Shown one piece after another: positions 5,129-53,709 of a DNA stretch of 64,000 nucleotides. The notes beneath the pieces were generated by a model. The model was not told where the DNA came from. It saw only the letters and a list, made by a program, of their open reading frames with translations, and searched no databases. The DNA is from Eledone cirrhosa (taxonomy: Eukaryota). The stretch's first letter is position 1, and each line of letters starts with the position of its first letter. Position numbers and translations under genes: made by a program. The stretch spans positions 18,538,001-18,602,000 of the forward strand of contig OZ024763.1 in NCBI GenBank assembly GCA_964016885.1. Direction: 5' to 3'.

Positions 5129-5194
5129 TATTTTATCTGATGAGGACGTACTGTTGAAATAGCTCAATACCTCTGAAATATGTATAATAAAATA
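5129..5194 (+). ncRNA. Type-I hammerhead ribozyme (AUUUUAU-stem family)
   Basis: UAUUUUAU CUGAUGA GGAC GUACUG..CAAUAC CUCU GAAA UAUGUA UA^AUAAAAUA. Confidence 0.75.
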
Positions 5195-5583
5195 TATTTG
5201 ATCACATGAATGTCTATATTTATTAATATTTTGAAGTAATATTAATAACTCCAGAAAACCTCTTGTAGAGTGCTTTTAATCTATTGTGAAACTTTATTCA
5301 TTGATGAATTCATTGAACCTTGTTAAACTTTAAATCATAATTATATATATAATTATATATATAATTATATATATATATATATATATATATATATATATAT
5401 ATATATATATATATATATATATAACTCGTCCTATGGACTGACTCTTCTAAACCCTTGGATATTTATACCAAACATGTTCTACAGTATATATATATATATA
5501 TATATATATATATATATATATATATATATATATATATATATATATTATATATAAGATCAAAAGATGGTTAAAAGAGTTCCATG

Positions 5584-5654
5584 TATTTTATTATGCGCAT
5601 TTCAAAAACAAATATCATCATGCAATAACATTTGTGTTTTCATCAGATAAAATA
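5584..5654 (-). ncRNA. Type-I hammerhead ribozyme (UGCGCA stem III subfamily)
   Basis: UAUUUUAU CUGAUGA AAAC ACAAAUGUUAU..GAUAUUUGU UUUU GAAA UGCGCA UA^AUAAAAUA. Confidence 0.75.
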
Positions 5655-6789
5655 GGAAGACATGATATGAAGGTTAAAAACACTTGTGGATAGTGCAGTT
5701 TTAAATCAACATATGCATTGCTTTATTGTACTACAATAAAACTCACCTCCTACATATATATATATATATATATATATATATATATATATATATATATATA
5801 TATATATAATATATATATATATATATAATATATATAATGCAATGAAATATCTATGATCGTCGGCAAATCACTGATGAGGGACTTATTTTATTACATGTTA
5901 TCCATGTGCAACCTGCAGTATTCTTCTCACCATTTTTTCACACATATATATATATATATATATATATATATGTGTGTGTGTGTGTGTATGTATATATATA
6001 TATATATGTATGTATGTATAATTTTCTTTATTATGGCTAAGTGATGGATAGGTCATGGGCTTTGTTGCTGTGGAGTTTCACCTGTGTACTCAGATCATCA
6101 CACACACACACACACATATATATACACACACACACACACACACACACACACACATATATATACACACACACACACATTTATACACACACACACACACACA
6201 CACACACACACACACATATATACACACACATACACATATACACACACACACACATATATACACACACACATACACACATATATACACATACGAGTCTATT
6301 ACGTTTGATCAATAGTTTTACTTTCTTTGTGTTGCTGTTTTTAATCATAATAATAATAATAAAGTTTTCATATATTGGCCACAAGGGCCGACATATAGGG
6401 GACGATGCAAAGACAAGGGCCGTGGGGGGGGGGGGGGGGTTTACAATATAATAATGCTTTCTTTATTTACAATATAATAATAATAATAATAATAATAATT
6501 GGTCCTCTAGTGATTTTAAGGGAAGTCTTGTCTAATGTAAGACACAGGAGAGAATGCAGTGAGGGGGACCGCTGTCAACTTGTTGATTGCTAACTGAAAT
6601 ATCCAGATTGTTTAAAGATCTGTCTGAGGTTTTCAAAAACGAACCACAAGAACGATAACTGTTTCATTTGGTTTATTTATTAGACTCACAGGGTTTACAT
6701 TAAGAGGACAATAAAGACGGTACATGGCAGTACAGTGTGGTTTGTTTGTGAGAGGGAAATGTTTATAAAGAAGACTAAAAAATAAGCAT

Positions 6790-7210
6790 GGAATAATGGT
6801 TTCTGATTTAGGCACAAGGCCAGCAATTTTTGGGAGAGGGGGAGGTGGTGGTGGTGGTGGTGGTGGGGGGGGGGGTTCGATTAAATCGATCCTCAGTTCA
6901 TTACTGGTACTTTATTTTATGGATCCCGTAAGGATGAAAGGCAAAGCTAACCTCGGCAGGATTTGAACTCAATAATAATAATTGTTCCTTCTTTTAGTAT
7001 ACAAGGCCAGCAGTTATGTCAGTGTATTACTGGTACTTTATTTTATCGACCTCGTAAGGATGAAAGGCAAAGTTTACCTTGGGCGGGAATAATAATAATG
7101 GGGGAAGGGGAAAGTCGATTAAATCGACCCTAGTGCATTACTGGTACTTTATTTCATGGATCCCTTAAGGATGAAAGGCAAATATAACCTCGGCGGGATT
7201 TGAACTCATA
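6790..7210 (-). mobile_element. Cluster of three partial tRNA-derived SINEs (family A)
   Basis: Repeated ctggtactttattttatcgac..taaggatgaaaggcaaag..aacctcggcgggatttgaactc; the reverse complement contains the B box GAGTTCAAATCC. Confidence 0.8.
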
Positions 7211-8051
7211 ATAATAACAATGATTTCTTTATTAGCAACACAGGGTTTACATTAAGAGGACAATAAAGACGGTACACGACAGTACAGTGTGGGTTGTTTG
7301 TGTGAGGGAAAGGTTTATAAGGAAGACTGAAAAATAAAAACATTTAATAATTGGATGATGTGGTGTTACAGAGTCAGGGTGGTGTGGAGGAGATGTGTAG
7401 TGGAGGTAGGGGGGATTGGATCGATATCAGGTGCCACTTTGTTATAGACTTTATTTCATAAAACTTTCTACGTTTAATAGCGTATGTATCAAAAGTATAG
7501 TTGTGTGTACTTGTGTTAGTACAGACATATATATATATATATATATATATATATATATATATATATATAAACGGAAATATATATATATATATATATATAT
7601 ATATATATATATATATATATATATATATATATACAAATGGAAGCTTAGTAAAATAGAAGCTTTGGATGTGGCCAAGCAAAGTCGACCTACAATAAGGAAT
7701 GAGTAGCAAAGCACTCAATAAGTCCTTAGAGTAATAACATACGTTTAAATAGCTTGACAAATTGAAAATTGCGGTAGGCAAAACCCAGCCACCATACAAT
7801 ACCAAAACAACGAAAGAACTAATCAGGTTAATATATATATATATAAATATATGTATAAAATATATATATAAATATATATATATAAATATATATATAAATA
7901 TATGTATAAAATCCAAATTAAATAAACAAACCAGGATTTTTTCATTCTGAGGATTGAAAGCAAAACCCTTTGCTTTTAAGAAACCACTGGTAAATGGAAT
8001 AATTGCCTTATGTTGTTTATTACATAATAATATATATAAATATATATAAAC

Positions 8052-8213
8052 AAAGAAAGTGTGGTAAGAAACCAGATGGACCATAGCGCACCAGAGTACT
8101 CAATACTTAGGGTAGTAGAGTGGGTAATAGGAAAAGAGTCAGGACCCTGACGACGTTCGGATCTAGCTGCTGAAACGGCCGGAGCTCAGCCGTCGGGGGT
8201 CCTGACTCTTTTC
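8052..8213. mobile_element. CCCCGACGGC fold-back element family (carries the 3' half of a hammerhead: GAAAC-GGC..GCC-GUC)
   Basis: Shares the tail ccactctactaccctaagtattgagtactctggtgcg.. and the hairpin with copies at 21060, 24896, 34487, 37498, 37710 and 58785; sits between TA tracts. Confidence 0.7.
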
Positions 8214-51269: not shown

Positions 51270-51718
51270 GAAGAAGGAAAAATGCAGGTTTTCAACTAAG
51301 AGGATGAAGAAAATGAATTTTTTTTATGTGCATAATAATCAGCTAGACGTAACGGCTCAAAAAAGCCCTAAAAAGCTGAAAAAATGAAGTTTTTCACCTA
51401 ATGCGGGCCCTAGGCCATAAAAAAGTTGGATTTTCTTTGCTCACGGTATAAAGAAGAGACTGACTAATACATAGTTACAATTTCAAGGAAATCGGTCTGA
51501 CGTAACGCCTAAAAAAACCCCTAAAAATCTGAAAAAACGCAGTTTTTCACCTAATGCGGGCAGTAGGGGATCAAAAAGTTGAAGTCGAAGTTATGTGCAT
51601 AACACTCCCTGAAACATAAGTAATACACATGTAAAGTTTGAAAAAAATCGGTTGGGCACTTCTCGAGTTTTAGGGATTTAAACTCACAGACACACATCCT
51701 CAGTTTTATATATATAGA
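51270..51718 (-). mobile_element. Probable non-autonomous Helitron-like fragment (5' part)
   Basis: Minus strand begins TCTATATATATAAAACTGAGGATGTGTGTCTGTG; internal ~155-bp duplication; no 3' CTAG/hairpin seen. Confidence 0.4.
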
Positions 51719-51969
51719 TATATATATATCTCCGTATTTTGTTGATTGATAGCTGGCAGAAAGGAGTACTCAATACTAAAGTAGAGTTTATATATTCATG
51801 TTATTAAGGTTACATAAGTGAGTCTTGTTACTGTGGAGTTTCACCTGTTTATCACAGGGTCATTCCACTGATAAACAGGTGAAACTCCAGAGAAACAAGA
51901 CTTGAATATTAAAACCCTACTTCAGTATTGAGTACTCCTTTCTGCCAGCCTTCATTATATATATATCCA

Positions 51970-52157
51970 TCGGTGGATTGGCAGTATCGGTAGAGGGTCG
52001 GACGCCATGCTTTCCAGCATACTTACGTCTCTTTACGATCTGAGTTCAAATCCCGCCGAGGTTGACTTTGCCTTTCATCCTTACGGGGTCGATAAAATAA
52101 AGTACCAGTAATGCACTGGGTAATTGCTGGCCTTGTGCCTAAAGTAGAAACAATTAT
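51970..52157 (+). mobile_element. Full-length SINE family A
   Basis: A box, B box and core are present; a possible TSD tatatatatccatc lies on both sides. Confidence 0.85.
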
Positions 52158-52709
52158 ATATATCCATCAAGTTGGATACAGTAAGGAACTGATTAGATCA
52201 TTACTCACCAGAGTACTTGATACTTGGGGCGGTGGAGTATTGAACTAGCTGTTAAAACGGCAGAAGCTCAGCCGTCGTGCTTCCGACTCTTTCACACCTC
52301 TCTCTCTCTCTCTATATATATATACATATAATATATACACATATATATATACACATATACAGATATATATATACATATACATATATATATATATGTGTGT
52401 ATATATATCTAAGTCTAAAGTCTGTCTTAAGCCAGATGGCTCATTTGGCCGGTGCTTATCCTGGTTTCATGGCGTGAAGCGACTGAGAGTACACGACTTC
52501 CCCCTGGACAGGACGCCAGTCCATCGCATGGTTAAACCTCCAGCTATTGCTGGTACTCATTTTCAGCTGAGTATACTGGAGCAATATATATACACACACA
52601 TATACATACATATAGATATACACACACACACACATATATATATATATATGTTAGGTAATTCTGAATAAAAAGCAAAGGAAAAAAGAGTGCTCTATATATA
52701 GAACAGAGC

Positions 52710-52928
52710 TATTTAATTAGAGAGTGAACAACACAATATAACTACTCCATTACCAAAGGTTTCTGGATCCCAGACAATATTAACATACGTCTGGATCGTT
52801 CATCAGACAGAGATGAACGATCCATCTCTCTCTGATGAACGATCTAGACGTATGTTAATATTGTCTGGGATCCAGAAACCTTTGGTAATGGAGTAGTTAT
52901 ATTGTGTTGTTCACTCTCTAATTAAATA
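52710..52928. mobile_element. ~100-bp-arm palindrome carrying divergent hammerhead motifs
   Basis: Minus 52745-52812: CUCUGU CUGAUGA AC GAUCCAGAC..GUCUGGGAUC CA GAAACC uuu GGUA^AUGGAG; mirror copy on + at 52826-52893. Confidence 0.7.
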
Positions 52929-53645
52929 TATAGGGTATATATTTTCTCCTCGCTCATATATTCACCCAGCTTATACTGATAGAATAACTATGTAGCTTGT
53001 GTCTCTTCCTATCTTCGGTTAGCTTTCCTCTGTGTTGTTTACTTGTCTCACTCGCTTTACGCGTTTTACTTGTCCTAATAACTTATTTTAGTTATTATTG
53101 CGCCAACGTGAGGTATATGATTTTTAATGCAATGAAATACCTATGACCGTTGGTAAATCACTGACGAGGGACTCATTTTACAACATGTTATCCATGTGCA
53201 ACCATGCAGTATTCTTCTCCCCATTTTTTCATATATATATATATATATATATATATATATATATATATATATATATATATATAAAGGGTTAAAATACTGG
53301 AGCGTGTTGGAGTTAAACACCCTCTTCGTATTATAGAAATGACAGTAAAAGGTATAGCTCAATGTAGTTAAACAGAGCCGAAAAATTAATATATATATAT
53401 ATTAATATATATATATATAAGTAGAAGTGGTATTTAATTTGTTGGAAGTCCGTAATATTTTTTATTTTTTCTCTCTTTCTCCAGTGTCATTTAAATAAAA
53501 GGTTGTTTTTCAATTATTTACATATTCATTTGCATATTCACACATAAGTTTGAATAATCCCTAATATATTTCCACTATCCAGTGACTTTCCAACCGATAA
53601 GGTATGATTTTCATGGGTATGTCTCTATTTATAAAACAAACTTTG

Positions 53646-53709
53646 TATTTTATCTGATGAAAGCGTACCAATGTTGTCTTGGTATCCTTGAAATATATAT
53701 AATAAAATA
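53646..53709 (+). ncRNA. Type-I hammerhead ribozyme (AUUUUAU family)
   Basis: UAUUUUAU CUGAUGA AAGC GUACCAA uguuguc UUGGUAU CCUU GAAA UAUAUA UA^AUAAAAUA. Confidence 0.82.

What the first reader, a model, noticed from the sequence alone, without database searches (positions are those of the whole stretch)
5129..53709. AUUUUAU-stem hammerhead clan with covarying stem II and a recurrent pyrimidine mismatch at stem II position 4
Eleven copies in three subfamilies (5129/22822; 5584/20755/47580/47783/48117; 23766/29176/29308/53646) keep the stem I UUUUAU/AUAAAA or AUGAAA and an AUA cleavage triplet. Stem II differs completely but still pairs (GUACUG/CAGUAC, ACACCA/UGGUGU, GUACCAA/UUGGUAU, GCAAAUAUCGUCC/GGAUGAUAUUUGU). 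Most copies have 3 bp followed by a C-C or C-U mismatch, and the unrelated HHR at 31564 has the same C-C. This looks like selection on RNA structure, possibly a tertiary contact. Stem I 3' also overlaps an AAUAAA.
Basis: partly seen in the sequence, partly recalled or inferred. Interest (0 to 1): 0.75.

Follow-up and report, generated by a model that had tools for sequence, protein, structure and literature searches.

The report
Hydra-retrotransposon hammerheads with fixed mismatch
These are hammerhead (self-cutting RNA) motifs at the ends of a known kind of jumping gene, about 47,000 copies in this animal genome, that keep one unpaired cytosine while the pairs around it swap; it likely acts as a grip that holds cutting back, but cutting has not been tested.

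Summary
Confirmed. All 11 motifs are present; 10 have C·C or C·U at stem II pair 4. They are type I hammerheads whose stem III is an 8-nt palindrome (dimer type), in 3'-end fragments of Hydra-clade Penelope-like retrotransposons. Genome-wide, 47,027 of 49,567 counted copies keep C·Y; only 189 have C-G. Neighbouring pairs covary. The mismatch spans families whose proteins are 36-53% identical, and the 31565 copy is a relative, not unrelated. Relatives in other animals pair position 4 (42 of 43), as do two young families in this genome, so it is lineage-specific and not required. No conserved stem I partner was found, so the proposed tertiary contact is unsupported; a protein-recognised C that also weakens stem II is my best guess (untested). 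Also found: AAUAAA is enriched just after the cut site, and twin bulged hairpins (RCUC…GAGY) mark where 87 of 90 insertions end and recur in 28 of 33 relatives, so templates were uncut RNA. The scan noted the same mismatch before on other pieces of this genome (e1-8670794, e1-8671138). New variant of a known kind.

The parts
5131..5192 (+). Hammerhead, subfamily 1, C·C at pair 4; inside a 3'-end fragment of about 5062-5331
5248..5271 (+). Bulged leader hairpin 1 (RCUC...GAGY) of the 5131 copy
5586..5652 (-). Hammerhead, subfamily 2, C·U; fragment about 5549-5715, ends at (TA)n just before hairpin 1
20757..20819 (-). Hammerhead, subfamily 2, C·U; an inverted, more truncated copy (20862-21013, +) starts at GAAA
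20931..20955 (+). Bulged leader hairpin 1 in the inverted partial copy
22824..22885 (-). Hammerhead, subfamily 1, C·C, G·A at pair 1; fragment about 22680-23022
23768..23829 (+). Hammerhead, subfamily 3, C·U, core change at A6 (probably dead); fragment about 23712-23971
23881..23900 (+). Bulged leader hairpin 1 of the 23768 copy
29107..29126 (-). Bulged leader hairpin 1 of the 29238 copy
29178..29238 (-). Hammerhead, subfamily 3, decayed; the one window copy with pair 4 closed (G-C); inverted partner of 29310
29310..29370 (+). Hammerhead, subfamily 3, C·C, stem I 3' strand AUGAAA
31565..31618 (+). Hammerhead of a related family (stem I CUGC/GCAG), C·C; fragment 31497-31664
37089..37146 (+). 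Further hammerhead-like motif (core CUGAAGA, weak stem I), C·C at pair 4; not linked to an ORF here
47580..47646 (-). Hammerhead, subfamily 2, C·U; part of an inverted/tandem composite 47545-48320
47783..47849 (+). Hammerhead, subfamily 2, C·U
47894..47918 (+). Bulged leader hairpin 1 of the 47783 copy
48048..48072 (-). Bulged leader hairpin 1 of the 48185 copy
48119..48185 (-). Hammerhead, subfamily 2, C·U; inverted partial copy at 48251-48320 (+)
53648..53707 (+). Hammerhead, subfamily 3, C·C; fragment about 53470-53739, interrupted by another repeat

Best explanation
The motifs are type I hammerheads with a palindromic stem III at the ends of Hydra-clade Penelope-like retrotransposons, and the unpaired cytosine kept at stem II pair 4 is likely a recognition point, probably for the element's own protein, that also weakens the stem and so would keep the RNA uncut until it is bound. 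Shown: the motif sits in both terminal repeats of full elements, 238-289 nt before an RT plus GIY-YIG ORF and 0.7-2.0 kb after it; window copies are truncated end fragments at (TA)n; inserted copies run past the cut site and stop at one of two conserved bulged hairpins. Inferred: two ribozymes pair through the stem III palindrome to cut; reverse transcription starts just 5' of either hairpin on RNA that was not cut there; cutting and the adjacent AAUAAA define or end transcripts at another stage; C10.4 gates that choice. Selection acts on source elements; the dispersed copies decay.
For: Element: 808- and 821-aa open frames with the motif on both sides; ORF-to-motif links checked; Hydra motifs present. 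Dimer type: palindromes in all 20 C·Y representatives; monomer A15.1-U16.1 probability at most 0.01 in 13 of 13 window motifs, palindrome duplex -2.2 to -10.5 kcal/mol. Mismatch kept: 47,027 C·Y, 2,351 non-C, 189 C-G; with no position favoured, 23 of 39 clusters in this genome are open at pair 4 against 0 at pairs 2 and 3 and 2-6 at pairs 5-7. Base identity matters: U is the commonest change in copies (16 of 30 sampled) and would leave the pair open, yet 20 of the 23 open clusters are C·C or C·U (2 U·C, 1 C·A). Weakening: closing pair 4 lowers stem II energy by 5.2-6.7 kcal/mol in 11 of 12 mismatched window motifs, 1.4 in one. Uncut template: 87 of 90 terminal copies end within -20 to +3 nt of a hairpin start (17 more run into the ORF). 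Protein dependence has precedent: the Poseidon PLE hammerhead cuts only with the ORF protein and uncut RNA is the main substrate (PMC11167929, passages).
Against: No cleavage, binding or expression data. Two young families with open 830-aa frames in this genome pair position 4, as do 42 of 43 relatives, so the feature is dispensable for the clade. On the 10-tip tree 0 changes at 10.4 against a mean of 2.8 gives only P = 0.06, and position 11.7 also shows 0 changes. Families are related, and most loci were fetched with patterns built on the clan, which enriches C·Y clusters. In 2 loci pairs (L072/L073, L076/L077) both arms of one insertion share a change at 10.4, so such RNAs may still be copied. 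No covarying protein residue was looked for.
Confidence: 0.5

Rival explanations
1. Pure brake: any mismatch near the core slows cutting so that templates survive; the letter C is historical, left from a C-G pair.
For: 5-7 kcal/mol weakening. Sister families carry other weakening features: U·U or C·A at pair 1 in 15 of 43 relatives; the young paired families have A·G at pair 1 and a CCGAAGA core, and U4C is described as lowering activity (PMC3088659, passage). C-G is the commonest pair 4 in relatives (13 of 43).
Against: U at 10.4 would brake as well and arises most often but is nearly absent from family majorities; the mismatch never moves to pair 2 or 3. 23 of 43 relatives have G-C at pair 1.
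Confidence: 0.22
2. RNA tertiary role: the open C·Y lets stem II dock on stem I, or binds a metal, and speeds cutting, replacing the loop-loop contacts of canonical hammerheads.
For: Fixed distance from the core; canonical contacts lie just past pair 4 (PMC6155905 and PMC11875169, passages); all three window subfamilies have U at 1.7; spacing effects on stem II are known (PMC3088659, passage).
Against: No invariant stem I base and stem I lengths of 4-10 bp among 20 C·Y families; U1.7 is paired with A2.7 in most clan copies; relatives L161-L163 have the same or nearly the same stem I strands with pair 4 closed; no conserved Watson-Crick partner. A backbone or metal contact cannot be tested here.
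Confidence: 0.2
3. Frozen accident: one ancestral G-to-pyrimidine change was inherited and is nearly neutral.
For: Nine of ten C·Y tips form one clade (98/97); repair needs a transversion; the tree test alone is weak (P = 0.06).
Against: Neighbouring pairs went through several compensated transversions over the same branches; proteins differ by 47-64%; C·Y also occurs in families with other triplets, stem I types and 21- to 116-nt stem II regions; one clade for all 10 tips is rejected at p-AU 0.03, which needs a second origin or a reversion.
Confidence: 0.08

Closest known systems
Hydra-clade Penelope-like elements and their hammerheads (Craig et al. 2021, PMC8557442; section 11, passages, supplement parts 1-2 of 59)
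   Same: C-terminal GIY-YIG, DKT, CxCX5C linker, CxxC and CxH, (TA)n targets, type I hammerhead with palindromic stem III and no or U·U first pair.
   Different: In File S2, counted by eye, 24 of 25 Hydra families form pair 4 and one has a 3-bp stem; none has an internal C·Y. The listed octopus family has another hammerhead. Elements here are longer (about 3.7 kb motif to motif in L037 against under 3 kb), triplet mostly AUA. Leader hairpins are not mentioned in the parts read.
PLE hammerheads with small palindromic helix III (Cervera and de la Pena 2014, PMC4209133; main text parts 1-2 of 4, supplement parts 1-2 of 3)
   Same: In pLTRs, thousands of dispersed single copies, consensus families with covariation, long helix II, predicted dimer action.
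   Different: No extra nucleotide after A9; G10.1-C11.1 is rare (1 of 20 C·Y families); fixed C·Y. In Fig. S3, read by eye, two single examples have a pair-4 mismatch (C·A in a sea urchin, U·U in a fluke), none C·C or C·U, and the text read does not remark on it.
Poseidon PLE of the green anole (Frangieh et al. 2024, PMC11167929; passages)
   Same: Two internal start sites downstream of the hammerhead, uncut RNA as template, genomic ends at those sites.
   Different: There the sites lie in an AC-rich stem loop inside the ORF with a 30-40 nt tail; here the two ends are about 90-165 nt apart, before the ATG, each just 5' of a sequence-conserved bulged hairpin.
Non-LTR retrozymes with canonical type I hammerheads (PMC7229834, passages; bioRxiv 10.64898/2026.07.22.740005, abstract and passages)
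   Same: Type I topology, weak helix III, high copy number; an axolotl family has a U·U mismatch at the base of helix II.
   Different: No short tandem monomers, no loop 1-loop 2 contacts; copies here are truncated ends of autonomous elements.

Membership tests
Hammerhead ribozyme, type I | Core CUGANGA, GAAA, U16.1 and H17 | tested here: met
   10 of 11 copies intact, one A6 change
Hammerhead ribozyme, type I | Three helices around the core, open at helix I | tested here: met
   Stems I and II covary; stem III is 2-3 bp as a monomer and 8 bp between two molecules
Hammerhead ribozyme, type I | Self-cleavage at H17 | not testable with these tools
   No RNA reads or assay
Canonical type I hammerhead (Schistosoma type, Rfam models) | 4-bp stem II with loop 2 contacting an internal loop of stem I; Rfam match | tested here: not met
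   No stem I internal loop, long stem II; no Rfam hammerhead hit
PLE-associated hammerhead (Cervera and de la Pena 2014) | Lies in the pLTRs flanking an RT-EN ORF | tested here: met
   L037, L042, L230, L236 carry it on both sides of the ORF
PLE-associated hammerhead (Cervera and de la Pena 2014) | Palindromic helix III / loop 3 | tested here: met
   20 of 20 C·Y representatives
Minimal PLE hammerhead (min-HHR consensus) | Extra nucleotide after A9, G10.1-C11.1, no helix III | tested here: not met
   Stem II starts directly after A9; G-C at pair 1 in 1 of 20. It fits the small-palindrome variant, not the strict min-HHR
Hydra-clade PLE (Craig et al. 2021) | DKT in place of DKG; RWK-type N-terminal motif | tested here: met
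   SDKTNN at 132; RLRWI at 45 (RW kept, third residue varies)
Hydra-clade PLE (Craig et al. 2021) | CxCX5C linker; CxxC and CxH beside the conserved E and N; C-terminal GIY-YIG | tested here: met
   CNCPVKNKC at 667, YFGST at 701, CNLCLNE at 767, N...CLH at 786. Pfam gave no hit for the ORF
Hydra-clade PLE (Craig et al. 2021) | Insertion into (TA)n | tested here: met
   35 of 41 copies aligned to the subfamily 2 leader end at (TA)n; 25 of 33 for L236; lower for other references
Hydra-clade PLE (Craig et al. 2021) | Generally shorter than 3 kb | tested here: not met
   About 3.7 kb between motifs in L037; a tendency in the paper, not a diagnostic
Hydra-clade PLE (Craig et al. 2021) | RT groups with the published Hydra proteins | not tested
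   Published proteins were not available as alignable sequences; trees used metagenome relatives only
Non-LTR retrozyme | Tandem monomers of a few hundred nt without coding capacity | tested here: not met
   Copies are dispersed or inverted end fragments of ORF-bearing elements

The most novel reading that the evidence does not exclude
Hydra retrotransposons end in a three-part RNA switch: a dimer hammerhead, a poly(A) signal at its cut site, and twin bulged hairpins that seat the telomerase-like reverse transcriptase at two start points; in this lineage the unpaired C10.4 is a base-specific handle by which the element's protein turns the ribozyme on or off. That would be a naturally evolved protein-gated hammerhead, with paired sister families in the same genome as ready controls.
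Probability: 0.3. Interest if true: 0.72.

Novelty: new variant of a known kind. Interest (0 to 1): 0.45.

Why it matters
What hammerheads do in Penelope-like elements is an open question: they cut poorly alone, and in one element only with protein. Here nature supplies matched variants: young intact families in one genome with and without a fixed C·Y, and animal relatives with the same stem I but a closed pair. A one-base swap tests brake against contact. The conserved bulged hairpins give a concrete candidate for the RNA element that positions a telomerase-like reverse transcriptase, across the clade.

Tried and rejected
Neptune clade: my first reading from recalled motifs; dropped after reading the Hydra section and checking motifs. 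Pfam and PDB sequence searches with the ORF gave nothing. Rfam: nothing at gathering, only chance hits at E up to 10. First tree (quick) had three wrong ORF-to-motif labels (L048, L235, L228); links were rechecked and the tree rebuilt with 10 of 35 relatives and without L031, L231, L232, L246. Mismatch tied to the AUA triplet: rejected, it also occurs with GUA, GUC, GUU and AUC. Alternative Watson-Crick partner of C10.4 within -150 to +250 nt: scattered, no shared position in 22 families. Pattern for C-start palindromes was close to its control (2,164 against 1,633) and was used only to fetch loci. Viral contigs: no relative of the ORF; 17 pattern hits, 0 fold as hammerheads. Sequencing runs: no RNA holder listed; contigs of two runs show only depth rising toward the element's 3' end. 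C·A copies were not counted genome-wide. R-scape is not available. Lunse et al. (RNA Biol 14:1499), the paper on small PLE hammerhead variants, is not held and was not read, so a description of this mismatch there cannot be excluded; bioRxiv supplements and the unread supplement parts may also bear on it.
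Full report
Observation. The window is AT-rich animal DNA full of microsatellites from a 3.0-Gb genome. A strict pattern finds 10 of them against 0 in 100 shuffles; the eleventh, at 23768, has a changed core. Each reads stem I 5' strand, CUGAUGA, stem II hairpin, GAAA, six nucleotides, UA, stem I 3' strand: a type I hammerhead cutting after AUA. Pair 4 of stem II is C·C in 4 copies, C·U in 6 and G-C in 1. The motif at 31565 and one more at 37093 also have C·C. 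The six nucleotides with A15.1 and U16.1 form an 8-nt palindrome in every copy (AUAUAUAU, AUAUGUAU with wobble, AUGCGCAU). As monomers the A15.1-U16.1 pair has probability at most 0.01 in 13 of 13 motifs, while two palindromes form a duplex of -2.2 to -10.5 kcal/mol. This is the dimer-type layout described for Penelope-like elements (PMC4209133, parts 1-2). Rfam does not recognise it.

What carries it. The strict pattern has 41,329 matches in the genome, control 0. Around some lie long frames: L037 has motif, 808-aa ORF, motif, and L031 an 821-aa frame with an inverted upstream copy. The protein has 37 relatives at 28-41% identity, about 700 aa, one named from an argonaut; Pfam and PDB give no hit. 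It shows RLRWI, SDKTNN, YRDD, CNCPVKNKC, YFGST, CNLCLNE and a CxH after the conserved N, which are the diagnostics of the Hydra clade (PMC8557442 section 11). In 7 full elements the motif lies 238-289 nt before the first aligned codon, and linked downstream motifs lie 0.7-2.0 kb after the stop. The window holds no ORF piece: its copies are short end fragments, several in inverted pairs, beside (TA)n. The host is probably a cephalopod; this is an inference from the nearest named protein.

Is the mismatch kept? With the same anchors, 47,027 copies have C with C or U opposite, 2,351 have another base at 10.4 and 189 have C-G; C·A was not counted, so 94.9% of 49,567. The listed exceptions (first 100 of each) are spread over all subfamilies, as decay would be; U is the commonest change (16 of 30 loci). 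In most loci with two arms the partner keeps C·Y, but in L072/L073 and L076/L077 both arms share the change. Another 14,454 matches (control 3) have C..Y with other stem I ends (that pattern demanded the C and Y). A finder that favours no position gave 199 copies in 39 clusters from the own-genome loci: clusters open at pairs 1 to 8 number 22, 0, 0, 23, 4, 2, 6, 10, and 20 of the 23 are C·C or C·U. The sample is enriched for the clan because of how loci were fetched. Among 20 C·Y family representatives, which I chose for that trait, pairs 2, 3 and 6 are formed in 20 of 20 with three to five pair types each, and 112 of 120 cells at pairs 1-3 and 5-7 are paired against 71 shuffled. The tool count on 19 distinct rows gives a covariation score of 0.60 against 0.25 (0 of 500 shuffles) and 0.10-0.22 for slid partners; RNAalifold finds stems I and II unaided and leaves pair 4 open. 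These controls do not remove relatedness.

How old, and how general? After correcting three ORF-to-motif links, a 24-row tree puts the three window subfamilies, the 31565 family and two more families in one clade (98/97), so 31565 is a relative; its endonuclease piece is 44% identical to subfamily 2. One more C·C family (L048, 36% identity, stem II region of about 100 nt, GUA triplet) falls outside it, unresolved beside two young families with open 830-aa frames whose hammerhead pairs position 4 and has a CCGAAGA core. One clade for all ten C·Y tips is rejected at p-AU 0.03 under LG+G4: either an old gain with a later loss, or two gains. On the ten tips 10.4 shows 0 changes against a mean of 2.8 at other stem II positions, P = 0.06, and 11.7 also shows 0, so this test alone is weak. 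Outside this genome, 77 metagenome loci encode relatives; 43 have a sense hammerhead and at least 350 aa; pair 4 is formed in 42 with five pair types, one is C·A, none C·Y. L161 and L163 have the clan's stem I strands, and L162 nearly so, with C-G at pair 4. In the published Hydra table, counted by eye, 24 of 25 families form pair 4 and none has an internal C·Y; that table came from a descriptor search that may favour paired stems.

What it may do. Closing pair 4 in silico stabilises stem II by 5.2-6.7 kcal/mol in 11 of 12 mismatched window motifs. A simple brake would accept U at 10.4, the easiest change, yet families keep C, which points to a base-specific contact. Stem I offers no constant partner: it is 4-10 bp long with no invariant base, and no Watson-Crick partner recurs nearby. 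A Poseidon PLE hammerhead cuts only with the element's protein, and uncut RNA is its main template (PMC11167929, passages). I therefore rank a protein-recognised C, which also holds the stem weak, first (0.5), a pure brake second (0.22), an RNA tertiary or metal contact third (0.2) and neutral inheritance last (0.08). None is tested.

The module downstream. Inserted copies contain the whole hammerhead and continue past the cut site, so their templates were not cut there. Between motif and ATG lie two hairpins of the form RCUC, inner stem, 2-nt 3' bulge, GAGY. Of 107 copies aligned to five reference leaders, 57 end at hairpin 1, 30 at hairpin 2, 17 run into the ORF and 3 end elsewhere (window of -20 to +3 nt; AT microhomology blurs the exact base). 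The hairpin is in 28 of 33 distinct relatives within 200 nt (shuffled mean 1.2, maximum 5), first copy mostly at +39 to +57, inner pair C-G 26 times and U-A 19 times, bulge mostly UU. It is present in paired and mismatched families alike. I infer that it positions the reverse transcriptase at two start points, the Hydra counterpart of the two-site start shown for Poseidon. AAUAAA lies within 25 nt of the cut site in 15 of 22 own families and 14 of 35 relatives, against 3.0 and 2.4 for shuffles and 0 in the next 26 nt; it shifts downstream where stem I changes. Seven of the 15 are the closely related clan. A poly(A) signal is likely but not shown.

Known or new. The kind is known: Penelope-element hammerheads, Hydra clade. 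Seven paper searches showed no description of a fixed C·Y in stem II or of the leader hairpins; the most relevant paper on small PLE hammerheads (Lunse et al.) could not be read. Papers seen: PMC4209133 main text parts 1-2 of 4 and supplement parts 1-2 of 3; PMC8557442 passages, section 11 and supplement parts 1-2 of 59; passages of PMC7229834, PMC6765202, PMC3088659, PMC6155905, PMC11167929, PMC11875169; abstract and passages of bioRxiv 10.64898/2026.07.22.740005. This scan noted the mismatch before on other pieces of the same genome; one look-up for the hairpins by words and one by sequence found nothing. Verdict: real, selected, lineage-specific variant of a known ribozyme; interest 0.45.

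Noticed in passing
L037, L042, L236, L230, L249 leaders; L123-L197; window 5248, 20931, 23881, 29107, 47894, 48048: Twin bulged hairpins RCUC...GAGY between hammerhead and ATG, conserved across Hydra elements of many animals; 87 of 90 terminal insertion ends lie at their 5' foot.
   Followed up: yes
L249:3380 and 7578 (+), L254, L257: Two young Hydra families with many open 830-aa frames carry a hammerhead with core CCGAAGA (U4C) and A·G at pair 1, stem II otherwise fully paired.
   Followed up: partly
L048 (742 nt after the ORF, - strand); L027, L031:5593-5743, L120:2892-3030: Hammerheads with stem II regions of 99-116 nt, CGAUCG palindrome, still C·C at pair 4.
   Followed up: partly
window 5871 (+), 53161 (+), 32312 (+), 32248 (-): Repeats in which GAAA lies upstream of CUGAYGA; they resemble the scrambled hammerheads that other findings of this scan describe in this genome.
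   Followed up: no
window 4980 (-), 59381 (+), 35659 (-), 7947 (+): Other hammerhead-like motifs with pair 4 formed, of different families; 4980 looks canonical (5-bp stem II, GUC).
   Followed up: no
window 8121 (-), 21179, 25011, 34627, 37599, 37816, 58903 (+): An abundant short repeat carries the same bulged-hairpin pattern and, at 24900-25000, a long perfect palindrome; it may be a non-autonomous passenger of Hydra elements.
   Followed up: no
window 24089 (+), 8642 (-), 8298 (-): Clan remnants that keep the 3' half of the hammerhead but have lost the CUGAUGA side.
   Followed up: no
window 16948-17943 (+): 331-aa stop-free frame that looks like the C-terminal part of a LINE reverse transcriptase followed by C2H2-like fingers (label from recall).
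   Followed up: no
window 41286-43314; 30240-31119; 31139-31432: Tandem arrays of 247, 104 and 49 nt.
   Followed up: no
L228:1550-3470: A Hydra-like ORF in this genome that groups with the metagenome relatives, not with the host clade; no hammerhead was found for it.
   Followed up: partly
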